Position numbers and translations under genes: made by a program. DNA of 64,000 nt from assembly GCA_951406725.2 (NCBI GenBank), contig OX597814.1, forward strand, positions 214,272,001 to 214,336,000. The letters are read 5' to 3'. The stretch comes from Octopus vulgaris. Its lineage: Eukaryota. The notes below the pieces were generated by a model. That model saw only the letters and a list, made by a program, of their open reading frames with translations, was not told where the DNA came from and searched no databases. Each line of letters opens with the position of its first letter. Position 1 is the first letter of the stretch. Positions 130 to 46,560 of the stretch are shown in pieces.

Positions 130-304
130 TACTTCAAATCTGGTTATCTTTAATCATCTATCTTTAGTCTATCTGTTGCCTGATGATTGAGCCATTTACT
201 TGACTTATCAATATCAGAGATTAGTCATCAGTGGATAATCAGTTCTACTGACTTCTAAACAATACTTGTGGAATCCAATTCTTTGTCAATAAAAATATAT
301 AAAT

Positions 305-533
305 GCACCCTTTTAAAGCCTAGCCAGGCTCATGGGCCTGATTTCCCGGTTTCTATGGTGTATGAGTTCCCCAGCTGGACAGGACGCAGTCCATCGCAGC
401 ATTACTCATTTTTGCCAGCAGAGTGGACTGGAGCAACATGAAATGAAGTGTTTTGCTCAAGAACACAACGTGTCGCCCGGTCCGGGAATCGAAACCACAA
501 TCTTACGATCATGATGCTGACACCCTAACCACT
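305..533 (-). mobile_element. tRNA-derived SINE (family F)
   Basis: Minus strand has an A-box-like AGTGGTTAGGG and B-box GGTTTCGATTCCC; related heads at ~13825-13950 (+), ~24840-24942 (-) and ~55150-55255 (-). Confidence 0.7.
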
Positions 534-8655: not shown

Positions 8656-8964
8656 CGAATCGCGCACACACACCTTTGTATTTTTCCTGTTCATCGGTTC
8701 TATGTTGATGAATGAGTAATAAATCTGTAGAAAAAAATAGCCACAGCACAGTCATGTAAGCACAAACAATATTCAGAGTGCATTTTGGGAAGGTGGGCAT
8801 TGTAGGTGAGTACGAAGAAGGGATGTGCTTTTGTAGTTTCAAGCAAAATTTTTGACTGATTGTCCTTTGTTATTACAGATCAATTTGCGAAATGCATAAC
8901 ATGGTTTACAACTGAATGCACCATGCAATTCTGAATCAGTGATAAATGAGGTTGCATGTGTATA

Positions 8965-9567
8965 TTTCTTTACTACCCACAAGGGGCTAAACACAGAGGG
9001 GACAAACAAGGACAGACAAATGGATTAAGTCGATTACATCGACCCCAGTGCATAACTGGTACTTAATTTATCGACCCCGAAAGGATGAAAGGCAAAGTCG
9101 ACCTCGGCGGAATTTGAACTCAGAACATAACGGCAGACGAAATACCTATTTCTTTACTGCCCACAAGGGGCTAAACACAGAGGGGATAAACAAGGACAGA
9201 CAAAGGGATTAAGTCGATTACATCGACCCCAGTGCATAACTGGTACTTAATTTATCGACCCTGAAAGGATGAAAGGCAAAGTCGACCTCGGCGGAATTTG
9301 AACTCAGAACATAATGGCAGACGAAATACCTATTTCTTTACTGCCCACAAGGGGCTAAACACAGAGGGGATAAACAAGGACAGACAAAGGGATTAAGTCG
9401 ATTACATCGACCCCCAGTGCATAACTGGTACTTAATTTATCGACCCCCGAAAGGATGAAAGGCAAAGTCGACCTCGGTGGAATTTGAACTCGGAACGTAA
9501 CGACAGACGAAATATGGCTACGCATTTCGCCCGGCGTGCTAACGTTTCTGCCAGCTCACCGCCTGAA
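8965..9567 (-). mobile_element. SINE family B tandem trimer
   Basis: Three ~182-bp units with a single head; flanked by a 17-bp TSD gagg(t/c)tgcatgtgtata (8948-8964, 9568-9584). Confidence 0.85.
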
Positions 9568-10026: not shown

Positions 10027-10349
10027 CTATAATACAAAAAACAAACCTTCCGTTATTATTCTTTATCATATAGACGACTAATAACAATTAGAGTTTCACA
10101 GTCAATATGACTTAAAATTGTGATTTCCAACTCCACTGAAAATCACTAAGCATTTATGAAACCATCTTTATTTCACTTAAAGGGGCCAAATCTAAAATGG
10201 ACAATCGCTACTTTATTTTTATATATATAGATTTCAAACAAAGTGAGTTGGCAGGGTCATTAGAATTTTGCTTTAGAATGCCTTGTGATCTGATTCACTG
10301 CATTCTGAGTTCAAATCCTGCTAAGTTTGACTTTGCTTTTCGTCCTAAC

Positions 10350-10800
10350 ATCATCATCATCATCATCGTTTAACGTCCGTTCTCCATGCTAGCATGGGTT
10401 GGACGGTTCGACCGGGGATCTGGGAAGCCAGAAGGCTGCACCAGGGTCCAGTCTTATCTGGCAATGTTTCTACGGCTGGATGCCCTTCCTAACGCCAACC
10501 ACTCCGTGAGTGTAGTGGGTGCTTTTTACGTGCCACCTGCAGTGGTGCCAGGCAAGGCTGGCATCGGCCACGGTCGGATTGGTGCATTTTACGTGCCACC
10601 GGCACGGAAGCCAGTCGAGGCGGCACTGGCTTCGGCCACGATTCGGATGGTGCTTTTTACGTGCCACCGGCACGGAAGCCAGTCGAGGCGGCACTGGCAT
10701 TGGCCATGATTCGGATAGTGCTTTTTACGTACCACCAGTCCAGGGGTCCTGGCATCTGCCGGGTGCCAGTCATAGGATTGGTTCAATTTCCATTCCGATT
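10350..10800 (-). mobile_element. RTE 3'UTR-derived element (family C)
   Basis: Reverse complement of the RTE tail at 16140-16330 (ggcgttaggaagggcatccagc...(GAT)n), with ~59-bp internal repeats. Confidence 0.8.
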
Positions 10801-11030
10801 TCAATGATAAATAACATAAAAGCGCAATTCTGGAAGCAATTCTTTTTTTCTTTCTTAGTTTATATGTTCCCTTCATCTCTTTCTCTTGGAATCAGTTATT
10901 TTTATGTTATGAGAAAGGTTATGGAAAAACCATTCTCAGCATCTCTTTCTTCAGGTATTGGAGAATGATTAAGCAAGGGATAGCAACTTCTCATCTCTAT
11001 ATTCTATATTTGCATCTAACACATAGCATA

Positions 11031-11387
11031 TACCATATGTTCAGGCATATAAGGTACACCCCAATTTTGGCAGGCTTAATCTGCAAGAAAGAAACTGCAG
11101 CAAACACTGAATCCCCAAGTTGAATATCTCACACATCTTCACTTTTAGAAACCATGAAAATTTTGACTGATGTTCTTTGGTAAGATGTTATGGTAGGCTA
11201 AGTAACAATACTTACGTTAACACTACCAAATATCACTATTGATTTCCACTGACACCAGTTTTATCCATCATTAATAACACTAACCAAGCCTACCCAAAAC
11301 CTGACCTTTAGCATATAAGGCACAGGGGAAATTTGGGGGTGGAATTTTTAGGAAAAAAAGTGTGCCTTATATGCCAGGAAATATGTG
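11031..11387. mobile_element. Tigger/pogo-like MITE
   Basis: Imperfect TIRs taccatatgttcaggcatataaggtacac / gtgtgccttatatgccaggaaatatg. Confidence 0.55.
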
Positions 11388-11394
11388 ACATACG

Positions 11395-11439
<45 letters not shown>

Positions 11440-11797
11440 CTCCAGGAAAGTTAGGGGTTGTGAGTCCAACCCGCTAAGGGGTAATATCTATCCAATATAC
11501 TGTTGGTAGAATACCCAATTATTAATACACAAGTCTTTTTTATTGCATTGCAATTAACTTCCCTAGTGTATTAAATGGGTGAAGGTAAAGAGATATTTTA
11601 CCATTAATTTATATTGCAAATAAGAAAATGGAGGAGAACAATAGTTGGTTCATCAACTTTAGGACATTAAAAATGTTAACTTATTTATTTATTAAACTGA
11701 TAATTATAATAACATACATACATATAGCATATTATTCTATGCATATAAAATAAGGATACAAGTAATTATTAAAAAAACATGAATATAAATTATTAAA

Positions 11798-11926
11798 ATA
11801 ACTTACAGCTGTTTCAGCCCATAGATAAAAGCATTTAATTCTGCCTATATTAGTCAAGTGTATTGAGGTAATAGGCAGTTGAAAATGAGGTACTTGTATA
11901 TATCTCTAGGCTTCGTCAGAGATTAT
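11798..11926 (-). ncRNA. Type I hammerhead ribozyme motif with long stem II
   Basis: Minus strand reads ATAATCT CTGACGA AGCCTA-G-AGATA...TATCT-A-TGGGCT GAAAC AGCT GTA AGTTAT: intact core, GUA cleavage triplet, palindromic stem III ACAGCTGT. Confidence 0.75.
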
Positions 11927-11974
11927 AAAGTACAATCATAATAAATATAAATATAAAACAAAATACACACACAT

Positions 11975-12021
<47 letters not shown>

Positions 12022-12947
12022 CATATATGATGATACTTAATTAATTATATATACTGAAATATACATACACATCCACAAGTACATATATAATATTCAGTTA
12101 TTACTAATATTATCGTTATTATTAATATTAGATTATGTGTATTCTGCTATTCACAATACATAGTATATGAAATCTAAAATATAGAATACAATATATAAAC
12201 ACATGTTTATGAAAGATATAAATATATTAATTTTACAATCAATATCAGTATATCAATATATCATTTATTATAGTTATTTCAATATTATTGTGCATATATA
12301 TATATATATATATATATGGGTAACAAACACATGCATATGTATACATACACATACACACAAATATACATAAATACATATATAAATTTTTTTTCCATTTCAT
12401 CATACTAAAATATACATACATATATTTTTAAACGTAATATAGTTCGCAGACTAAGAGAGAAACTTTGTGAGCTTTCTTTTTCCGTTATTTATTAATATTT
12501 TAGTAGTTTAAATCTTACGGGGATTGGGGAGGGATTATTTTTAATCATTTGCTAAATCTAATTGGTTAACAATTTTGAAATTCTTTGTCTCGGTTACGGT
12601 TGGTTGATTGAAAACCGATGAAGTAAAACAAATTATAAACAGAACATAAATAATTGAAAATGGGAATTCATATGTTTTTATATATACATATATATACATA
12701 CATACACCTATATATAGATATATATACGCAGATATACATACATATATATACGGACTAACATACATATATACAGACATATTAATTAATTAATTTTTAAAGT
12801 GGTATATTAAAGGGATATTATTTAATATATAAACTTAGTCATAATATGTAAAAGGATAAAATAAAGTTTAGGTCACATCATATATATGAGATCACATTGT
12901 ATTTAAGTGAATACAGTAATTAAAGATTTAGTATGAACTGGGTAAAT

Positions 12948-13515
12948 ATCATCATCATCATCATCATTTAGCGTCCGCTTTCCATGCTAGCATGGGTTGG
13001 ACGGTTCAACTGGAGTCTGTGAAGCTGGAAGGCTTCGTCAGACCCAGTCAGATCTGGCAGTGTTTCTACGGCTGGATGCCCTTCCTAACGCCAGCCACTC
13101 CGTGAGTGTAGTGGGTGCTTTTTACGTGCCACCTGCACAGGTGTCAGACAGAGCTGGCAAACAGCCACGAATGGATGGTGCTTTTACGTGTCACCGGCAC
13201 GGGGCCAGGCGATGCTGGCAACGGACACGAACGGGTGGTGCTTTTACGTGCCACCGACACGGGGCCAGACAGAGCTGGCAAACGGCCACGAATGGATGGT
13301 GCTTTTACGTGTCACCGGCACGGGGTCCAGGCGAGGCTGGCAACGGACACGAACGGATGGTGCTTTTACGTGCCACCGACACGGGGCCAGACAGAGCTGG
13401 CAAACGGCCACGAACGGATGGTGCTTTTACGTGTCACCGGCACGGGGGCCAGGTGAGGAGGCTGGCAATGGACACGAACGGATGGTGCTTTTACGTGCCA
13501 CTGACACGGGGCCAG
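12948..13515 (-). mobile_element. RTE 3'UTR-derived element (family C) with ~61-bp tandem array
   Basis: (CAT)n start, family C core, then about 6-7 units of gatggtgcttttacgtg(t/c)cacc. Confidence 0.8.
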
Positions 13516-14120
13516 GTAATATATAAATGGAAATCTGTATGTTGAGGTAAGAACTGTTAGAATGAATGTTTGGGTTCAGTAAAACTTTTATATATAGTAC
13601 TTTTAAATGTTTACTCAAGAAAATTTGGTTTGGTTGAGTTAAGGCAATATTTATTAAGACTGATTTATAAATAGAGGAGAAAGTCTAGTTGAGTTTATTG
13701 ACATAGAGACATTTATTTAAAAACATGTATTACTTGTTGAAATAATCAGAAAAGGTGTGAAAGTGTTTTGTGTACATATGTAATCAAAAGTCTTTATACG
13801 CATGCGTGTGTGTGTGTGTGTAGGTGCATAACCTAGTCGTTAGGATGTTGTACTCATGATCACGAGATTGTGGTTTCGATTCCCAGACCAGGTGGTGTGT
13901 TGAGTTTTTGAGCAAAACTCTTCATTTCACATTGTTCTGCACTTATTTTGACTTGTGACATGTGGGCACACTTGTGCACCTGTACAGGTAATGTTAGTTT
14001 GATGAAGAGAGTGAGCTTATGTGAACACAAACATTTGATTTCCATAAACAAGTTATCCATGTGGTTGTTCAAGAAATTATGGAACCCTCATATGTCGTCT
14101 AACAATAAGAGAGTTCATAA

Positions 14121-14122
<2 letters not shown>

Positions 14123-14159
<37 letters not shown>

Positions 14160-14252
14160 AAGAGCAAGCATGGTACCCCCTAGGATTATATATTCCTCTT
14201 AACCAACTTTGGAAATTTACTTATATATATATGTGTATATATGTATGTATGC

Positions 14253-14302
<50 letters not shown>

Positions 14303-14473
14303 ATACATATATATATACATATATATATATATATACATATACATATACATACATATACATATATATACATATATATATATACATACATATATATATATAC
14401 ACATATACATATATATATACATATACATATATATATACATATATACATATATACATATACATATACATACATA
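14123..14473. repeat. (TA)n/(TACA)n microsatellite complex
   Basis: Directly visible; produces spurious YI-repeat ORFs. Confidence 0.95.
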
Positions 14474-16330
14474 AGCCCCTGTACCTGGCTTTCGTTGACA
14501 TGGAGAAAGCTTTTGATAGGGTCCCCCGATCCCTCATCTGGTGGTCAATGAGGAAACTAGGGATAGATGAATGGCTGGTGAGGGCAGTGCAAGCCATGTA
14601 CAGAGATGCCGTAAGTAAGGTTAGAGTTGGCAACATGTACACAGAAGAATTCAAAGTAGAGGTTGGGGTCCACCAGGGTTCAGTACTCAGCCCCCTCCTA
14701 TTTATCATAGTCCTCCAGGCAATTGTGGAGGAATTCAAGACAAGTTGCCCCTGGGAGCTCCTCTATGCTGACGACCTCGCTCTAATTGCTGAGTCACTAT
14801 CAGAACTGGAGGAGAAGTTCCAGGTGTGGAAGGAGGGTTTAGAATCGAGGGGCCTTAGAGTCAACCTAGCTAAAACCAAAGTACTAATAAGTAGAAAGGT
14901 AGACAATCCACAAATATCCTCAGGAAGATGGCCCTGCTCGATCTGTAGAAAAGGTGTGGGTAGAAACTCTATAAGATGTACCCAGTGTAAGCTATGGACA
15001 CATAAGAGGTGCAGCAATGTCAAAGGTAGGCTAACTGGGAAGATAGTTTTTGTATGTGGCAGATGCTCTGGAGCATTGACCTCCGAAAATCTGCAGAAAA
15101 CAACTTCCGTCACTTTCCGGGGGAAAAACTAGAAGTAGTTGATAGCTTCCGCTATCTAGGTGACCAAGTCAGTAGTGGGGGTGGGTGCGCTGAAAGTGTA
15201 ACTGCTAGAATAACAATAGCCTGGGCAAAGTTTAGGGAGCTCTTACCTCTGCTGGTGACTAAAGGCCTCTCGCTCAGAGTAAAAGGCAGACTGTATGATG
15301 CATGTGTACGAACAGCTATGCTACATGGCAGTGAAACATGGGCCGTGACTGCTGAGGACATGCGTAAGCTCGTGAGGAACGAAGCCAGTATGCTCCGATG
15401 GATGTGTAATGTCAGTGTACTTACTCGACAGAGCGTTAGTACCTTGAGAGAAATGTTGTACCTAAGAAGTATCAGTTGTGGTGTGCAAGAGAGACGATTG
15501 CGCTGGTATGGTCATGTGGCGAGAATGGATGAAGATAGGTGTGTGAGAAAGTGCCAATCCCTAGCAGTTGAGGGAACCCGTGGAAGAGGTAGACCCAGGA
15601 AAACCTGGGACGAGGTGGTGAAGCACGACCTTCGGACGTTAGGTCTCACCATGGAAATGACTAGAGACCGAGACCTATGGAAGTATGCTGTGCGTGAGAA
15701 GACCCGGCAAGACTAGTGAAGCCATAATCCGTGGCCCCTACCTGGGACGTAGTCAGTCCACCTGTGCATACCTTCCTTCTTGTGACACTTGTTGAAGACC
15801 TGTTGAGGCAAGTGAGAACCGAATCAAATCAAATCGAACCAAATCAAAATAGATGTACATCAATGGAATTTGTACCCTTGTGGTACCAGTGCCGATGGCT
15901 AATAAGAAAACCACCCGAACGTGACCGTAGCCAGTACCGCAACGACTGGCCTCCGTGCTGAGGGCACGTAACAAACACCATCCGAGCGTGGCCGTCTGCC
16001 AGCCTCGTCTGGCACCTGTGTCGGTGACACATAAGAAAACACCATCCGAGCGTGGCCGTCAGCCAGCCTCGTCTGGCACCTGTGTCGGTGGCACATAAAA
16101 AACACCATCCGAGCGTGGCCGTCTGCCAGCCTCGTCTGGCACCTGTGTCGGTGGCACATAAAATCACCCACTACACTCTCGGAGTGGTTGGCGTTAGGAA
16201 GGGCATCCAGCTGTAGAAACACTGCCAGATCTGACTGGCCTGGTGCAGCCTTCGGGCTTGCCAGACCCCAGTTGAACCGTCCAACCCATGCTAGCATGGA
16301 AAGCGGACGTTAAATGATGATGATGATGAT
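14474..16330 (+). mobile_element. RTE-clade LINE, 5'-truncated (RT + Cys-rich insert + 3'UTR + (GAT)n tail)
   Basis: [32 protein letters not shown] and FRYLG motifs; one frameshift near 15120; stop at 15716. Confidence 0.92.
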
Positions 16331-16348
16331 ATATATGTATATACATAT

Positions 16349-16386
<38 letters not shown>

Positions 16387-16654
16387 TATCTTATATTAAA
16401 CTTTTTAATACTTTTTGATAGTTATATATATTTAATAAAAATATATGTGTATATATAAAAATTTATAAATATAAATTAATAATTTTAATTTTAAATTTAA
16501 ATAATTAAAATTTTATATTTTATATATTATATTAATTATTTTTATTTTTATGTTTTGGCTTATGCTTTTCACTGTTTGATTTGCCTAATAGTGGTTTTAT
16601 CTCTAATTTAATTTATATATATATGTATGTGTGTGTGTGTGTGTGTGTGTGTAT

Positions 16655-17557
16655 TTCTTGACTACCTACACACCCATAACCCCATTGCTAAAAATAACTC
16701 TACAGCCACTGACCTTAACCAAAATGGACACAAGCATTTATTACTAGATTTCCTCCCTAACCCCTGCAGAGAAGAAGAGATACCTGCTACTTTCTTTAAA
16801 TTCTTTTCATTTTGCTCTATTTTGTTTATTTTTTTAAGCTATCTTCTTCTACCTCCTCATCCTCTCCCTTATCGTTTTGGCTGCCCCTGTACACCATATT
16901 CTTAGACACTATATGCTCATATCCCTTACTTTATCTATAAAGCCAATCCTTAACTTCCCCCCTCACTTTTTCTACCTCTCTTTCTATTTATTTATTTTTC
17001 TTTCCTTTTACCACTTGATAGCCACCTCCACTACCATTCTGTTATTGAATGTTGATATGTCTTTTTTTATGGATGTTTACAATATCAGGACTTTAACCCA
17101 CATGGATCTATGCAGAATTACACCTAAGGACTTATGCGCTTATTTTATAAAATCGGAAAGTTGAACTGTGAACTTTTATGCTTTATTTTTCTTTTCTCTC
17201 CTCATCTCCTTATTCCTTTACTCCAGGCCTCTATGTCATCATTTCATTAATCTATACCGTTCTCAATTTCCCTATTTGTCTCTGATGATGGAATATCCCA
17301 TACTCTGGGATATCCCAGAAACAGCTGTAAGACTGAATTTTTTCCAGGGAAAATAATGCATAGGACTTGAGATGTTTACCTTACTTTAACATTTGTTGTC
17401 CTCTTTAACAATTATATATCCTCTATATCGGAAATCTGCAATGGCTCCATAACTACCGTCTCGGCTGTAATCTTGGAGCCCTAGTAATTCGTTACAGCAC
17501 TTACCTAGCGTACCTTATCGTTTAGATCACCTGTGAACTAAACCTCCATACTTTGTA
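16655..17557 (+). mobile_element. Probable Penelope-like element 3' end/pseudo-LTR carrying a hammerhead
   Basis: Unique segment bounded by (TG)n and (TA)n, containing the hammerhead at 17278-17333; class inferred from the hammerhead type. Confidence 0.45.
17278..17333 (+). ncRNA. Type I hammerhead ribozyme motif
   Basis: GTCT CTGATGA TGG-A-ATATCCCA TACTC TGGGATAT-C-CCA GAAAC AGCT GTA AGAC: stem I GTCT/AGAC, 11-bp stem II, palindromic stem III; predicted cut after 17329. Confidence 0.85.
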
Positions 17558-17559
17558 TA

Positions 17560-17619
<60 letters not shown>

Positions 17620-18041
17620 ATAGCATCACACCAACCAAAGCCTTGTGAGTGGATTTCATACATGGAAACTGAAAGAAGACTGTCGTATATATGTGTATAT
17701 TTGTGTGTGTGTGTGTGTGTACCCCCATCATCCTTTGACAACAGATGTTGCTGTGTTTACATACCCATAACTTAGCAGTTCGACAAAACAAACACTGATA
17801 GAATAAGTACTAGGCTTACAAAAAATAAATCCTGGGGTCGGTTTGATCAACTAAAGGCGGTGCTCCAGCATGGCTGCAGTTAATGGATACCGATAGTATA
17901 TACAGATACTTTATCCCTTAGTTGGTTATTATAACCACTGACTCTGTTTACACTATACATATACAAACTTACCAAATCATTCCTCAACAACCACACAAAC
18001 CAATGCACTTTTGTACCTGTTGATTACAAACAGTTCCTTAC

Positions 18042-27751: not shown

Positions 27752-27780
<29 letters not shown>

Positions 27781-27783
<3 letters not shown>

Positions 27784-28990
27784 CAAAGACCAAAGTATTA
27801 GTAAGCAGCAAGAGGTACTCAACACACATCCCCTCGGGTAGGTGGCCCTGCTCAACCTGTAGGAAAGGTACAGGTAGAAACTCCATAAGATGCACCCAAT
27901 GTAAGTTATGGACACATAAGAGGTGCAGCAACATTAAAGGGAAATTAACAGATAAGATAGCTTTCATGTGCGGCAGATGCACAGGGACAATAGACACAAC
28001 AGACACTCAGAAAACAGATTCCATCACACTCCAGGGAGAGAAACTAGAAGTAGTTGATAGTTTCCGCTACCTGGGAGACCAAGTTAGTAGTGGAGGTGGA
28101 TGCACAGAGAGTATCACCACTAGAATACGAATAGCCTGGGCAAAGTTCAGAAAGCTCCTACCCCTACTGGCAACAAAAGGCCTCTCCCTCAGAGCAAAAG
28201 GTAGATTGTATGATGCATGTGTGCGAACTGCCATGCTTCACGGTAATGAAACATGGGCTGTGACTGCAGAAGACATGCGTAGACTTGAAAGAAATGAAGC
28301 TAGCATGATCCGCTGGATGTGTAATGTCAGTGTGCACGCAAAACAGAGTGTAAGTATCCTGAGAGAAATGCTGGATATAAGAAGCATCAGATGTGGTGTG
28401 CAAGAGCGACGCTTGCGATGGTATGGTCATGTGCTGCGGATGGATGAAGAGAGATGTGTGAAGAAGTGCCACTCCCAAACAGTTGAAGGTATCAGGGGAG
28501 AGGTAGACCCAGGAAGACATGGGATGAGGTGGTCAAGCATGACCTCAGAGCATTGGGCCTCACTGAGGCAATGGCGAAGGACCGAGATCTCTGGAGATAT
28601 GCTGTGACTACAAAGACCCGGGCTGCTTTCTGCAGCAATTCCACATACCCCCTACCCATTCTAAGTACCCCGGATCCCCAAAGTACCCTGGATCCCCAAA
28701 GTACCCCGATCCCCAAAGTACCCCGGACCTCGTTGCCCCCGTGCCGCTGACACGTTAAAATGCTCGAACCGATCGTGACGATGCCGGACCCTCCGGCCCC
28801 TGTGCAGGTGGCACGTAAAAAGCACCCAATCCACTCACGGAGTGGTTGGCGTTAGGAAGGGCATCCAGCCGTAGAAACTCTGCCAGATTCAGACTGGAGC
28901 CTGGAGCGGCCCCTGGCTTCCCAGACCCGGTCAAACCGTCCAACCCGTGCTAGCGCGGAAAGCGGACGTTAAACGATGATGATGATGATG
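27781..28990 (+). mobile_element. RTE-clade LINE, second subfamily, 5'-truncated
   Basis: Protein highly similar to 14870-15716 (WPCSTCRKG, FRYLGDQ, RRLRWYGHV); the 3'UTR has a ~20-bp tandem repeat at 28664-28725 and a (GAT)n tail. Confidence 0.9.
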
Positions 28991-32200: not shown

Positions 32201-33289
32201 TGAATATCGGGAGAAAGAGATCTGGGTTAGATATTGACTATGTAAATACTTGAAAAAAGTGGAAATGAAGTATTAATGGTATAGAATAAATGAAAGTGGT
32301 TGCCTCATTTGGCTGCAGACACAATACGGACTGTAAAATGATTCATATTAAGAGCATTCTACAATAGAAATGTTGAAATCAGAACATAAAAGTGGAATGT
32401 GTTCCCTAACCCACCTATAAGGCCAGTAACTCCAAATAACAACTGATCTCTATCCATCTGGCCCTTCAAACCCATGCTAGCATGGTAAAGCAAATATAAA
32501 TTGTTGATAGATGCACTCAACTTTCATAAATGAAAAACAGACAAATCGTCAGTTTGAGGAGTTAACCTATATTTAATTAATATAACACATCACATGACCA
32601 TTACAAGTATCTGAACCTAGTTGAAGACCATTCCCAGATAAAACAGGGTTCAACCTTGTAGCCAATGTAATAGGAAGCTGCCTCATCAATTGGCACTGAT
32701 GCTGATGATGTAGAAGTCAAATCTTTTTCCATTGAGGATTGTCTGCATCAGTCAGTACCATCACCTACCCACAACCCTGATCAATGCACTGACACTCCAA
32801 ATACTCTTAACTTCTTTCTAACTTTCAAACCCAAATTTTATCCGGCCACCCACACATCAGCCACCCATTAGATTTGATGACAGCAGCTAAGCCTGGAGTA
32901 TTACAAGTTAACAACTGGTGAGAATTCTGCCAATCTCATACTGACTACTCCAGGCAGTAAATATACTTTGACCTCAACCCATCCAAAGCACATAATGAAA
33001 GCCATAAACCTATCAAAATTTACCTGTAGCAATAGCAATGAAGAACACTATTTAGAACACCTAGAGGATGTCTCTAACTTCCTACCAACTAGAAGGCTTA
33101 ATTTTCAATATTCTTATGTCTTCTATTTACAACTTAGACATCTCAAACCAGAACAGTACTGCTTTCATAAATAGAAACCTTAAAAGTTTCCTTCATTTGG
33201 AAATTGACAATCTCGTTTCTTTTAACAGCAAAATCACTACACATTATTACGATAATAACATCTAGTTAAAAACAACACACAAACATCTC

Positions 33290-33698
33290 AGTGCAACCAA
33301 ACGCATACCCTCCATCAGACACCTACCATATTCTGAGTGCCTTGTTTCCCTGGGCATGGATTCACTGAAGCTCCGGCGTCTGGCGACGGACTTGGTAAGC
33401 ACCCACAAAGTTATCAACCACCTCACCAACAACAACACTGAACACCTTTTTGATCTCCATGTGTCTAACACACGTGGACATGCCTACAAAGTCAGAAAAC
33501 AACACAGCTCCCATGACTTTCGGAAACATTTTTTCACGCTCAGAGTTGCTGAAGCATGGAACAAACTGCCTGCATCAGTTGTTGACTGCCATGACACTGC
33601 ATCCTTTAAGGCCCTCATGCTTTCCGAAATCCGCCGAAACTACACCTGATTATATATACACTTTAGATGAGTTGTAGTGCACCTGAGCACTGTACACA

Positions 33699-41361: not shown

Positions 41362-42482
41362 GCAACGTTATGTTTATGTTGAATAGAGTTTTCGTTATAT
41401 TTAAGTTCAGGAGAGTTCTAAATAAGGGAAGGTAGTGAGTGATTTCTTCCGGTGTAAGGGAGATAATCGCTTAAAAAATTTTCCCTTTCCCTTGGTGTGA
41501 ATTTCTCTGTATCAGTATGTTCGGATGGTTGAGTCTGGGCTTGTACTTTTCAATGAAGAATGTTTCCTTGTTTAGTCTAATTTGTGTTGATGTTCCGAAA
41601 GCACATTGGTAAAATGGAAAGATTAAAAATTGTGGTAGTAGTTGCTTTGCGCATTTCTCAATGTGCTCACTAAAAGGTATCATTCTATATTCTGGGAATG
41701 CAATTTGTTGTCGATGCAGTGTGCATCTACGTCTGAGTGATAGTCCCGTGGAACCCTACATACAACCCCAGAAACAAAGAAGCCTTCACCATCATCACCC
41801 AGAATTTACCAATACTTCATAAAGACCCCAAATTAAAGGAAATTCTAAACATACACCAAATCATTAAAAGCTACAAACAGCCTAAATCACTTAAAAGATT
41901 CTCACAAAGGCAAAATTGTCTTCGGAAATTACGGATGCAAGAGTAAAAAAATGTGGTAGATCGAACTGTGCAACATGCCCTTCCTCTTTAAAGAGGGACA
42001 GAAATTCAAGATCAAATCTAACTTTACTTGTGCCTCTGAAAACATAATTTATGTCATAAAATGCTCGGGCTGCCACCAAGACTACGTGGGTTCCATGGGA
42101 CTATCACTCAGACGTAGATGCACACTGCATCGACAACAAATTGCATTCCCAGAATATAGAATGATACCTTTTAATGAGCACATTGAGAAATGCGCAAAGC
42201 AACTACTACCACAATTTTTAATCTTTCCATTTTACCAATGTGCTTTCGGAACATCAACACAAATTAGACTAAACAAGGAAACATTCTTCATTGAAAAGTA
42301 CAAGCTCAGATTCAACCATCCGAACATACTGATACAGAGAAATTCACACCAAGGGAAAGGGAAAATTTTTTAAGCGATTTTCTCCCTTACACCGGAAGAA
42401 ATCACTCACTACCTTCCCTTATTTAGAACTCTCCTGAACTTAAACATAACGAAAACTCTATTCAACATAAACATAACGTCAC

Positions 42483-42521
42483 AAGAAATTTGAAAGGCTA
42501 CACGCGAAACCGGTCTTTCTT
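42483..42521 (+). ncRNA. Second copy of the minimal hammerhead (A9>G change)
   Basis: AAGAAA T TTGAAAG GC TACAC GC GAAAC CG GTC TTTCTT. Confidence 0.5.
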
Positions 42522-42648
42522 TTAAATTATGTCATCATAAGAGAAAAAATTTTTTTTTTAATTTTCTAATATTCTTCAGACATATTGACGCAAATATATA
42601 TATTTTTTAACATTTAAGCCTTCTGTAGTTTTTTCACTCTTTACTATT

Positions 42649-42694
<46 letters not shown>

Positions 42695-42769
42695 GCGGGA
42701 TGGGAAGGATGTGAGTGGGGTGGGGGAACTGAATTATAATATTTTTATACTCTGTCCCATCTTGAAAAT

Positions 42770-43175
42770 GCTTATTTGGCGCGGTGGTTACACCTTGGAA
42801 TTTTCTCATCATGCTTGTTTACCAGGTTCTCACTACTCAGCAGAATACTCAATACTTCCTCAAGGCGAAGATCACATTTGCCGGATAGGAATTACATGGG
42901 TGTGCATTTTTTTTTTTAATTATTGACCATTTTATTTCGTATTTCATTTTTGATTTTTTTTCAGTCTCCATATCCGGTCTGCCAGTGAAGTTGCGTATCG
43001 TCTGTATATTTTTCGGAAAGACGAAATGTGATTGCGACAACAAACTTTGAATTGGTTTCTCCGAGGCACCTATGTATGGGTATTTATGTTGGGATGTGGA
43101 GATTGTACATTTGGATATTATGTTTTTTTTTAGACACATTAGTTCATTAGCGGATTTTTTACGGCATGTGTAGTT
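42770..43175 (-). mobile_element. Decayed GIY-YIG endonuclease of a second Penelope-like lineage
   Basis: CLKKNIISKC...YPYIGASE...IKWSII...AHP, then (frameshifted) CDLRLEE and LVNKH..IPRCNH. Confidence 0.65.
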
Positions 43176-43215
43176 ATTTGTACTATTATAATTTTCATGT
43201 TTATATGTATATGTA

Positions 43216-43247
<32 letters not shown>

Positions 43248-44004
43248 ATGATTATATGTTGTGTATCTTCATCTATAAAATGGTACAGTTTGAGAATGGA
43301 AACCAAGTTTAAACACATCGATTTGCGTTTCAAAATGCAATTTATACCATGAATGTAGTTTTTTTAATACAAATCTGACGCTTGTGCAGTTTTGTACATA
43401 TAATATTTCACATTGTAAACGGCGGTGTCCCAGCATGGCCACAGCTCGTGAGCTGAATCTTGATGAAATGAAAAATAATGAAATGAAATGTTTCACCAAA
43501 ATAAGTACATAGATTATACTTGTCAACCACAGGAAACAGCTACACGTCACTTTCCCTTTTCAGACTTTTGTTTTATGGCTCATCTACACTTCCATTTAAA
43601 AAATTAAAACTTTCCGAACATGTTTTTATTATTTTGACCTTGCGGGAATTTCTCATTTGCGACACTTCCCACACTCGTAAAACTTCGGATTTTGAAAAGT
43701 TTTCAGAATTTTGGATAAAAACTTATACACGCATACATAATTATAATACATACAAATCAGGTATGGTTTGGCTTTTTTGAACATACACGTATTTCACCAA
43801 AATACCATAATAATGACATAACAGTTGTAGAAACATTATGCAATCTTGCACTCCATCATATCAGTGTTCCGCAATAAATATTTTTATTGTGGAACACTGA
43901 TGAGGTAAAGTGCAAGATAGAATAATGTTTCTACAACTGTTATGTAATTACTACTGATGAGACCTGTATATGTTCTATCAAGCATTAAATACCATACTTG
44001 ATAT

Positions 44005-44850: not shown

Positions 44851-45125
44851 TTCCCACTGCAGACGACACACACAGCATTGCAAACACCGCCCGCACATCC
44901 ATATCCACATTCCATGACTACCATTGGGATCGATCAGGTACCGGACAAAGATTCTGGATTATTTTTCCGTTTTTTTTTTTTTCACTTAATTTTTGAGAGT
45001 GGTCGGGTTCATTTTTAGTATTCTCGTTTGTGAGAGTAGTCGAGTTTATTTCAGATATTCTTATTTTAAAAGTCATCTCCGGCTAATCGTTGATGTTGCG
45101 TTCTCTGAGTGCTATTATTATAAGT

Positions 45126-46560
45126 CCATGCCGTCCAACAGCGTCGTAGGGCGCTGGACAGATGGACCCGTTAAACTGCTCGGAGTCTGGTTCGGTCCGG
45201 ACCTCCAGGTGGATAAAAACTGGGAAGAAGTGACGAGCAGGGTGGCCAATCTCACCCAGAAATGGGCCGAGAGGAAGCTGTCCCTGAAAGGTCGAGCGGA
45301 GGTGGCGAATGCATACATCGCATCCGTCATCCTTTACCGATTGACCGTCGTCCCTTGTCCCGACCGCTGGTTGGCCAAGCTGGTACACTTGCTCTTTGAC
45401 TTTTTGTGGAAGGGTCAGGTACCACTGGTCAGGCGATCCATCTGCTGTCAACGACCGCTGAACGGAGGCCTTGGCATGCCGTGGTTACTGATGCGCAGAC
45501 ATGCGCTCAAGCTACAGCATCTCAAGCGTTTCCTAGACGGTGAACAGGTGTGGTCGTCTTTTGTCAAAAGCGACTTTCCGCAGCTCGTCTCTTTGACAGA
45601 GCTGCAAACCTGGATCAAACGCAGACCGAGAAAGGGCGCTTGGCACCTCGAGTGCCGTCAAGCTCTCTTCGCCCTCCGCCAAGCGGGCAATGCAATCGGT
45701 AGTAGTTCCACTCTAGCGTTCTATAGAGGGTTAGTGGAAGAAAAGTGCGACGACGTTCTCGGGGAAACTGTAGGCGTTGACGATAACGAGCTGAGCAGTC
45801 TGTTCGGGAGGACTTTCGGGCCGGGGCCAATGGACAATTTCCAGAGGTCCCTCGCCTGGCAGTGCCGTCAGCCGGACCTGCCCGAGGTGCTGCCAGGACG
45901 ACGAAACCGTTCTGCACGCACTCGTCCAGTGTCCGAGTATTGCTGAACTATGGGTTTATGTCGAACAGCTACTGTCGCGTATAGGACGGATCCGGCTATC
46001 AGCTGAATCCATAGTGAAGATTGCCCTGCCGACCTCCTTTAACCAGGAGGGTAAGGCAGTTTTCCTTTGCCTAGTGGCTGTAGCGAAAGAGGTGGTATAG
46101 TGGACCCGTTTGAAAGGGCTAAGGTCAGACACTTTCCTCTTTGGCCCAGGCCTCATGAACTTTTTCAAGTTTCACTTGAAAAGGAAGATGAGAGTAGAGA
46201 GGCAAGTGCTGTCCGATAGCAAGTTTACTGAAAGGTGGATAAATGTCGCAAGAATGGCCAGTATGAAAGGAGCCATTCTGAGGATACACCTGTAATTTAA
46301 AAAGGTATTACAAAAGGAGAAAGGGGCTCTCTACCCTCCTTTTGACCAGGCTCCCGTGGCTTTTATGGGTTTTTGTACCAGGAACCTTTCGTAACGCCTC
46401 CCCCTATTGGGAGTTTTTCGTTGTTATAATTTTTCGTAGTTACACTGTTTTTACACGGTTTTTTTACAAACGGACAAAACCTTTTGTAACCTTTCATCCT
46501 GTGTTTTTGTCCCTTTATGTTTTAATTAATTTTTGTCAGCCCTTGTGGGCAATAAAAGAA
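45126..46560 (+). mobile_element. L1/Tx1-clade LINE, 5'-truncated ORF2 C-terminus and 3'UTR
   Basis: KLLGVWF, WAERKLSLKGR, FLWKG and GGLGMP motifs; frameshifted CPRCCQDDETVLHALVQC knuckle; ends in AATAAA. Confidence 0.85.

What the first reader, a model, noticed from the sequence alone, without database searches (positions are those of the whole stretch)
11798..11926. Hammerhead with ~95-nt structured stem II, in sense within the NAALADL2-like pre-mRNA
Seen on the minus (gene) strand in intron 3: CUGACGA, stem II AGCCUA-G-AGAUA/UAUCU-A-UGGGCU enclosing a second hairpin (CUGCCUAU/AUAGGCAG), then GAAAC AGCU GUA. The stem III and cleavage segment GAAACAGCTGTAAG is identical to the 17278 motif, although all other sequence differs and the strand is opposite. 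Inference: independent elements share one dimerisation palindrome, so trans-dimers between families are conceivable. Cleavage between 11804 and 11803 could cut the host intron co-transcriptionally.
Basis: partly seen in the sequence, partly recalled or inferred. Interest (0 to 1): 0.75.

Follow-up and report, generated by a model that had tools for sequence, protein, structure and literature searches.

The report
Long-armed hammerhead of octopus Penelope retroelements
This is the tail end of a broken jumping gene inside an octopus intron; it carries a predicted self-cutting RNA (hammerhead) whose side arm is about four times longer than in the published lists I could read and is kept in thousands of related copies, including young intact elements, so the arm likely serves the jumping gene rather than the host gene.

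Summary
The motif is real: a type I hammerhead at 11919-11804 (minus strand) with a 97-nt stem II, sense within coding intron 3 of an octopus NAALAD-like gene. It is the 3' end of a 5'-truncated Hydra-clade Penelope-like element (about 11439-12830) inserted in (TA)n. 3,410 genome sites carry the core with an 80-110-nt arm (control 0). The arm folds as a rod with compensatory changes between subfamilies, and an 85-nt version flanks intact 5.6-kb elements whose copies are 96-98% identical. The longest arm among 26 Hydra rows in Craig et al. 2021 is 24 nt. The segment shared with the 17282 motif occurs 14,584 times, so two in one window is ordinary (28% given one). That neighbour is a distant Hydra element lying antisense to the pre-mRNA. 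This copy looks like a decaying passenger: cores mutate at the flank rate, and an upstream hairpin is predicted to trap its core (about 12 kcal/mol). Cleavage is untested; no RNA end or truncation pile-up marks the cut. The scan noted long stem II in Penelope-type hammerheads before, here and in other genomes. Verdict: new variant of a known kind; host-intron cutting unlikely.

The parts
11439..12830 (-). 5'-truncated copy of a Hydra-clade Penelope-like element (3' non-coding region, hammerhead, tail); no ORF
   Evidence: Homology to other copies starts at 12830 while L062/L063 share more upstream; collinear over 1,042 nt at 79% with L173, which carries the RT ORF upstream; ends at (TA)n
11913..11919 (-). 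Hammerhead core, 5' half CUGACGA
   Evidence: Sequence
11816..11912 (-). Stem II, 97 nt: unbranched rod with internal loops; two substitutions nearly private to this copy (11837, 11835) break the middle helix
   Evidence: Folding of subfamily representatives; pair counts; letters shared by 1 and 2 of 29 other copies
11804..11815 (-). Core 3' half GAAA, minimal stem III with palindrome ACAGCUGU (11812-11805), GUA triplet; predicted cut 11804/11803
   Evidence: Sequence; self-duplex -11.1 kcal/mol
11920..11924 (-). Stem I 5' strand
   Evidence: Constrained fold; the 2 core-proximal pairs are kept in 48 of 48 aligned copies, the 3 distal pairs in 64% of cells
11797..11803 (-). Stem I 3' strand (2 bp, 2-nt bulge, 3 bp)
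11890..11933 (-). Competing hairpin that is predicted to trap the core and the 5' strand of stem II
   Evidence: Minimum-energy fold; 0 of 16 pairs with two-sided change
11439..11612 (-). Optional 3' tail between the family's two fixed 3' ends; holds a small hairpin at 11472-11455
   Evidence: Copies end near 11607-11612 or run on to about 11440; young family ends at +198..210 (16 of 30) or +372..384 (14 of 30) after the cut; hairpin
11410..11438 (.). (TA)n target microsatellite at the element's 3' end
   Evidence: Sequence
10027..18041 (-). Coding intron 3 of the NAALAD-like (PA-domain) host gene; holds both hammerheads, this one sense, the other antisense
   Evidence: tblastn of P0001 and splice sites
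17282..17329 (+). Second hammerhead, 29-nt stem II, in another, distant Hydra-type element (about 16650-17550)
   Evidence: Hydra-type endonuclease remnants lie upstream in 9 of 25 related loci

Best explanation
The motif is the terminal-repeat hammerhead of an octopus lineage of Hydra-clade Penelope-like retrotransposons, here in a truncated copy that is likely inert, and its long stem II is a conserved rod that likely works for the element's own RNA. Shown: the element context, the copy number, the rod and its compensatory changes, and two such hammerheads 5.6 kb apart around an intact RT + GIY-YIG ORF in young copies. Inferred: in a read-through transcript of an intact element the two hammerheads would pair through the ACAGCUGU palindrome to build stem III, possibly helped by the element's protein, and cut after GUH to release unit-length RNA; the rod would fold locally, hold the two half-cores together and end up at the 3' end of the upstream product, where it likely serves as a structural handle for the element's protein. 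The window copy lacks a partner in cis, has a damaged rod and a competing hairpin, so it is predicted to cut the host pre-mRNA rarely if at all.
For: Dispersed family: 40 of 40 scored matches at 90-100% identity among 1,237 candidates. Link to a PLE ORF: L173, L228, L220, L231. Intact relatives: 4 loci with direct-repeat hammerheads 5,579-5,604 nt apart, units 96.5-98.2% identical, ORF of 947 aa in L216. Hydra motifs RWR, DKT, CxCX5C, CxxC, CxH present as defined in PMC8557442 section 11. Rod: 12 of 14 cluster representatives fold with z from -2.2 to -6.3, 2 of 14 at -0.5. Sequence-only alignment of 36 copies: 8 of 39 pairs and 18 cells with two-sided change, 0 of 500 shuffles reach the cell count, but 120 of 500 reach the pair count. 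Model-fitted alignment of 48 copies: 26 of 39 pairs, 0 of 500 shuffles (leans towards the structure). Neutral decay after insertion: 12/210 changed cells in CUGANGA (5.7%), 4.7% in stem II, 3.1% in GAAAC..GUA, 5.4-6.5% in flanks; 19 of 30 copies keep the strict core. Cost of the active fold: 12.9 kcal/mol for this copy against 4.5 for the young family. Dimer and protein-assisted cleavage are published for other PLE hammerheads (PMC4209133; PMC11167929).
Against: No cleavage was measured. Among 30 young copies none starts exactly at the cut; 5 start between -7 and +22 (4 insertions), which is not a clear pile-up given the bias to short copies. Contigs bridge the young family's cut site in 3 of 4 runs guessed to be RNA, and in the lizard element cleavage was not needed for insertion in vitro and no RNA ends were seen at the cut. 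Covariation counts sequences, not events, and the distal helices are the weakest (72-76% paired). The handle function has no direct evidence. The two RT-linked copies closest to the window family (L173, L228) lack the endonuclease part, at different junctions, so its own master element was not seen whole. Folding energies ignore tertiary contacts and proteins.
Confidence: 0.7

Rival explanations
1. The long arm is a tolerated passenger: an insertion in loop II that must stay paired only so that it does not disturb the core, with no function of its own.
For: Arm length varies 85-105 nt between related subfamilies and the distal hairpin differs; other families with the same stem III have arms of 21-61 nt; stem II is known to accept inserts in engineered hammerheads (recalled).
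Against: An internal loop about 11-12 pairs from the core and the middle helix recur across subfamilies; the arm persisted through at least 10 multi-copy clusters and in the youngest family instead of being deleted.
Confidence: 0.35
2. The host uses this copy: co-transcriptional cutting in intron 3 lowers or reroutes NAALAD-like mRNA, alone or with other hammerhead RNAs in trans.
For: Sense orientation, intact core, 1.8 kb before the 3' splice site; any RNA with the same palindrome could pair, and 14,584 loci carry it; an intronic ribozyme tunes CPEB3 in mammals (search listing only).
Against: An intact core is common by chance (19 of 30 copies); stem II pairing probability falls to about 0.01-0.09 with upstream sequence; the only neighbour is antisense; an 8-bp duplex (-11.1) does not pay for opening this copy (12.9); a full-length protein is annotated across the intron.
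Confidence: 0.06
3. The arm is kept partly at the DNA level as the element's internal promoter or start region, so that internally started transcripts begin inside the arm and escape cutting.
For: Contigs of two studies stop at L216 2094-2101, the apex of the young family's arm, one with a loose end that looks like a template-switch adapter (adapter identity recalled); PLE transcripts start in the upstream terminal repeat (review passage).
Against: One adapter-bearing contig; another run bridges the apex; reverse transcriptase can stall at hairpins; no DNA run was laid on that stretch; compensatory pairing points to RNA structure.
Confidence: 0.1

Closest known systems
Hammerheads of Hydra-clade Penelope-like elements (Craig et al. 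2021, PMC8557442; read: passages, sections 6 and 11, supplement part 2 of 59 with File S1 Hydra sheet and File S2)
   Same: Type I hammerhead near the 3' end; short palindromic stem III (ACAG..CUGU-A in Penelope-1_NV, Hydra-1_aMil, Penelope-1_SK); RWK-like, DKT and CxCX5C motifs; C-terminal GIY-YIG; (TA)n targets; the clade includes Hydra-1_Obim of Octopus bimaculoides.
   Different: Stem II plus loop is 85-105 nt against at most 24 nt in the 26 Hydra rows of File S2 (51 nt in the longest non-Hydra row); units are 5.6 kb against mostly under 3 kb; GAAACAGCTGT occurs 0 times in that supplement; stem I is only 2 bp + bulge + 3 bp.
Minimal and dimer-type PLE hammerheads (Cervera & de la Pena 2014, PMC4209133; read: parts 1-2 of 4. 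Luense et al. 2017: title only, in a reference list; not held)
   Same: In terminal repeats of PLEs and as thousands of solo copies; palindromic helix III; low activity as monomers, some as dimers.
   Different: Their 'larger than usual' helix II is 6-8 bp; nothing near a 35-bp rod is described in the parts read.
Anolis Poseidon (PAc) hammerhead (Frangieh et al. 2024, PMC11167929; read: parts 1-2 of 4)
   Same: PLE hammerhead in the terminal repeat; two fixed 3' ends that define a tail.
   Different: Another clade; short stem II holding the start codon; tail 30-40 nt against about 180 nt here; here the ORF starts about 510 nt after the cut.
Animal non-LTR retrozymes (PMC7229834, passages; bioRxiv 10.64898/2026.07.22.740005, part 1 of 5)
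   Same: Type I hammerhead, AT-rich, PLE-related.
   Different: Retrozymes are 150-450-nt tandem non-coding units; this copy is a single truncated end of a coding element with no tandem unit.

Membership tests
Type I hammerhead ribozyme | Core CUGANGA...GAAA...UH in type I order | tested here: met
Type I hammerhead ribozyme | Stem II closed by a purine-pyrimidine pair next to the core | tested here: met
   G-C 21, G-U 17, A-U 10 of 48 copies, none unpaired; A-U in this copy
Type I hammerhead ribozyme | Stem I | tested here: inconclusive
   Two proximal pairs kept in 48 of 48; distal three pairs 64%; pair probability near 0 in this copy's context
Type I hammerhead ribozyme | Stem III stable alone, or short and palindromic for dimers | tested here: met
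   ACAGCUGU is a perfect palindrome, duplex -11.1 kcal/mol
Type I hammerhead ribozyme | Loop I-loop II tertiary contact of fast hammerheads | not tested
   No terminal loop II lies near stem I; an internal loop could stand in, but this was not modelled
Type I hammerhead ribozyme | Self-cleavage at GUH | not testable with these tools
   Only contigs were available; truncation points inconclusive
Hydra-clade Penelope-like element | Single ORF with RT and C-terminal GIY-YIG | tested here: met
   947-aa ORF in the young relative L216; decayed in L231 and L220 with window-type ends; absent from the window copy; Pfam gave no hit for the ORF, so domains rest on motifs
Hydra-clade Penelope-like element | RWK motif, DKT motif, CxCX5C linker, CxxC and CxH motifs near the C-terminus | tested here: met
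   RIRWR 35, SDKTN 137, CNCRNKNKC 809, CSLC 907, CIH 935; definitions
Hydra-clade Penelope-like element | Insertion into (TA)n, partial tandems, inverted 5' arms | tested here: met
   30 of 30 young copies end in TA-repeat sequence; tandems and inverted arms
Hydra-clade Penelope-like element | Placement in an RT tree with published Hydra sequences | not tested
   No tree was built; membership rests on the diagnostic motifs
Hydra-clade Penelope-like element | Generally short (<3 kb) | tested here: not met
   Units of 5,579-5,604 nt; the paper gives this as a tendency, not a criterion
Naiad (N-terminal endonuclease PLE) | GIY-YIG N-terminal to RT, DKA motif | tested here: not met
   Endonuclease is C-terminal and the motif is DKT
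Non-LTR retrozyme | Short tandem non-coding units each with a hammerhead | tested here: not met
   Single copy here; relatives run on into an RT ORF

The most novel reading that the evidence does not exclude
An active octopus Hydra lineage has grown a dedicated 85-105-nt RNA domain inside hammerhead stem II that binds the element's protein and licenses cutting, making a natural protein-gated hammerhead; because thousands of loci from many families share one kissing palindrome, their RNAs can also pair across families, so short-armed and non-autonomous elements can be cut by partnering with long-armed ones.
Probability: 0.2. Interest if true: 0.75.

Novelty: new variant of a known kind. Interest (0 to 1): 0.43.

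Why it matters
Hammerheads in Penelope-like elements are known, but their role is open: they are slow in vitro and, in one element, need the element's protein. A lineage with a large, covarying stem II arm in young intact elements offers a clean test of whether that arm is a protein handle or gate. It also shows that searches with short stem II limits miss thousands of motifs in one genome (Rfam gave no hit), which bears on statements that some elements lack hammerheads. For the host gene the finding matters little unless cutting at 11803 is shown.

Tried and rejected
Rfam scan: no hammerhead at E<=1. RNAalifold on 36 copies did not recover the rod (9 pairs, -5.3 kcal/mol; it paired the core with the distal loop); I put more weight on single folds and pair counts, but this result goes against a strongly fixed consensus. 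Naiad reading: considered because L173 lacks a C-terminal endonuclease, dropped after intact relatives showed Hydra motifs. Link to the abundant PLE at 41960-42373: its protein does not match the RT upstream of this family (best E 0.02 in low-complexity sequence). Competing hairpin as an evolved switch: no two-sided change in 16 pairs and weak in the young family. Sequencing runs: no RNA holder listed on record; contigs only, no piece spans the window stretch, no ends can be read; second lay on the young family likewise contigs only. Metagenome pattern scan: 9 hits, none with a full rod or a PLE match, taken as chance. 5' truncation at the cut: no exact start in 30 copies. Literature searches for a long stem II in natural hammerheads or for octopus hammerheads found no description of an arm of this size; 'long helix II' in PMC13725137 means 6-8 bp (passages). 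Luense et al. 2017 is not held, and I did not open the supplements of Cervera 2014 or of the 2026 preprint; they may list longer arms. Rows dropped: of 135 distinct stem III sites, 44 had no core within 150 nt; 36 of 49 long-arm rows went into alignment A1 (TA-expanded and near-duplicate rows left out); 42 chosen loci went into the model search.

Full report
Observation. The minus strand reads CUGACGA (11919-11913), 97 nt, GAAAC-AGCU-GUA (11815-11804), with a weak stem I of 2 bp, a 2-nt bulge and 3 bp. A descriptor scan of both strands of the window found this layout twice, here and at 17282 (+); Rfam found neither. The host gene matches an Octopus sinensis protein that its source names NAALADL1-like (PA domain). 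Its coding exons put both motifs in coding intron 3 (10027-18041): this one sense, the 17282 one antisense.

It is a repeat. The 166-nt region has 1,237 candidate copies, and all 40 scored are 90-100% identical. Homology runs from 12830 to (TA)n at about 11438. Two other copies share more sequence upstream, so this one is 5'-truncated. In L173 the same 3' region (79% over 1,042 nt) follows a reverse-transcriptase ORF. Searching with that RT led to intact elements: four loci with hammerheads in direct repeat 5,579-5,604 nt apart, units 96.5-98.2% identical, and in L216 a 947-aa ORF. [quoted passage not shown] No tree was built. L231 and L220 carry decayed ORFs with endonuclease next to window-type ends; L173 and L228 lack the endonuclease at different junctions. 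Young copies end at two fixed sites, +198..210 (16 of 30) and +372..384 (14 of 30) after the predicted cut, in TA repeats; the window copy ends at +365.

The long arm is a lineage trait. Core + 80-110 nt + GAAACAGCTGTMAG matches 3,410 sites and core + 10-40 nt matches 4,425, with 0 for the reversed controls; a tighter long-arm pattern gives 2,747. 82 distinct long-arm sites in my loci fall into 14 clusters with arms of 85-105 nt; 12 representatives fold with z of -2.2 to -6.3 (mononucleotide shuffles) and 2 at -0.5. One covariance model finds all the subfamilies given to it (48 matches in 42 loci, E<=2.5e-9), so they are homologous. On a sequence-only alignment of 36 copies 89% of cells pair, 18 cells change on both sides (0 of 500 shuffles) and 8 of 39 pairs do (120 of 500 shuffles). 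On the model-fitted alignment 26 of 39 pairs do (0 of 500; slid controls 9-16), with the caveat that it leans towards the structure and counts sequences, not events. RNAalifold on the 36 copies did not recover the rod. In File S2 of PMC8557442 the longest stem II plus loop among 26 Hydra rows is 24 nt, and the longest in the file is 51 nt. My searches found no paper on an arm of this size; Luense et al. 2017 was not available.

The shared palindrome is ordinary in this genome. GAAACAGCTGTAAG occurs 14,584 times against 18 for the control; given one copy, a second within 64 kb has probability 0.28. Of the first 30 hits, 19 had a plausible core 21-100 nt upstream, from several families. The 17282 element has 2,176 candidate copies; in 9 of 25 related loci Hydra-type endonuclease remnants (27-37% to the young ORF, CxCX5C in L274) lie upstream. 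Published Hydra hammerheads have the same ACAG..CUGU-A stem with a 2-nt loop. Common descent therefore explains the match at least as well as convergence. Pairing between families is possible on paper (8 bp, -11.1 kcal/mol) but is not special to these two loci, and they lie on opposite strands.

This copy looks inert. With 25 nt or more of upstream sequence a hairpin at 11933-11890 traps the core; stem II pairing drops to 0.01-0.09 and the active fold costs 11.8-13.2 kcal/mol. The cost is 4.5 for the young family and 5.0 for the 17282 motif. The hairpin shows no covariation. Two nearly private changes break the rod's middle helix, and across 30 copies the core changes as often as the flanks (5.7% against 5.4-6.5%; 3.1% in GAAAC..GUA); these copies were picked by similarity to the motif, which would favour conservation. 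Selection seems to act on master elements, not on inserted copies.

Mechanism. Shown: context, copy number, rod, two hammerheads per intact unit. Inferred from PMC4209133 (dimer-type PLE hammerheads, low activity) and PMC11167929 (no cleavage without protein; cleavage not needed for insertion in vitro): the two hammerheads of a read-through transcript pair by the palindrome, perhaps with the protein's help, and cut out unit-length RNA; the rod stays at the 3' end of the upstream product and likely acts as a handle. Against: no 5' truncation exactly at the cut in 30 young copies, 5 within -7..+22; contigs bridge the young family's cut in 3 of 4 runs guessed to be RNA. One odd hint: contigs of two studies stop at the arm's apex, one with an adapter-like loose end (identity recalled), which could mark a transcript start or a polymerase stall.

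Earlier notes of this scan describe long stem II arms in Penelope-type hammerheads in this and other genomes; a look-up by this sequence found none. I had reached the Hydra reading before those look-ups.

Verdict. Observation confirmed; interpretation partly supported. A new structural variant of a known retroelement ribozyme, well supported as a structure, untested as a catalyst, and most likely without effect on the host gene. Interest 0.43.

Noticed in passing
window 42489-42524 (+) and 41355-41320 (-): Two copies of a hammerhead with the U3-A8 core variant (UUGAAA(G/A), short stem II, GAAACCGGUC) behind a C-terminal GIY-YIG ORF of a very abundant young PLE (16,418 candidates, 89-95% aa identity among those scored), as an inverted pair.
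   Followed up: partly
window 42757-43184 (-): Decayed Hydra-type endonuclease remnant (29-34% to the young ORF).
   Followed up: no
window 43816-43945: Long near-perfect inverted repeat that scores weakly against a plant miRNA model; probably a foldback or MITE-like repeat.
   Followed up: no
L216 2094-2101 (-): Contigs from two studies stop at the apex of the young family's arm; one carries an adapter-like loose end.
   Followed up: partly
L302, L313/L314, L326: Young insertions whose arms start 3, 22 and 14 nt after the predicted cut; in L302 and L313/L314 an inverted arm joins right there, as if reverse transcription turned back near the end of a cut RNA.
   Followed up: partly
L173 6313-6604; L228 5200-5240: Two window-type copies join the RT region to the 3' region without the endonuclease, at different points.
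   Followed up: partly
L127, L137, L123, L134: Further families with the same stem III and arms of 54, 61 and 49 nt; the 54-nt arm folds as a rod in both copies.
   Followed up: partly
L238, L240, L247, L251 and many short-arm copies: Whole subfamilies carry C instead of U at core position 4 (CCGANGA).
   Followed up: no
window 11455-11472 (-): Small GC-rich hairpin just before the distal 3' end, also present in the young family; a candidate signal for where reverse transcription starts.
   Followed up: partly
window 14520-15716 (+), 27780-28607 (+), 33266-33649 (+), 44990-45946 (+): Fragments of non-LTR retrotransposon ORFs; the first has an RVT_1 hit.
   Followed up: no
window 8963-9514, 10448-10761, 13044-13526, 15943-16161: Short interspersed repeats with 61-68-nt and 184-nt internal units.
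   Followed up: no
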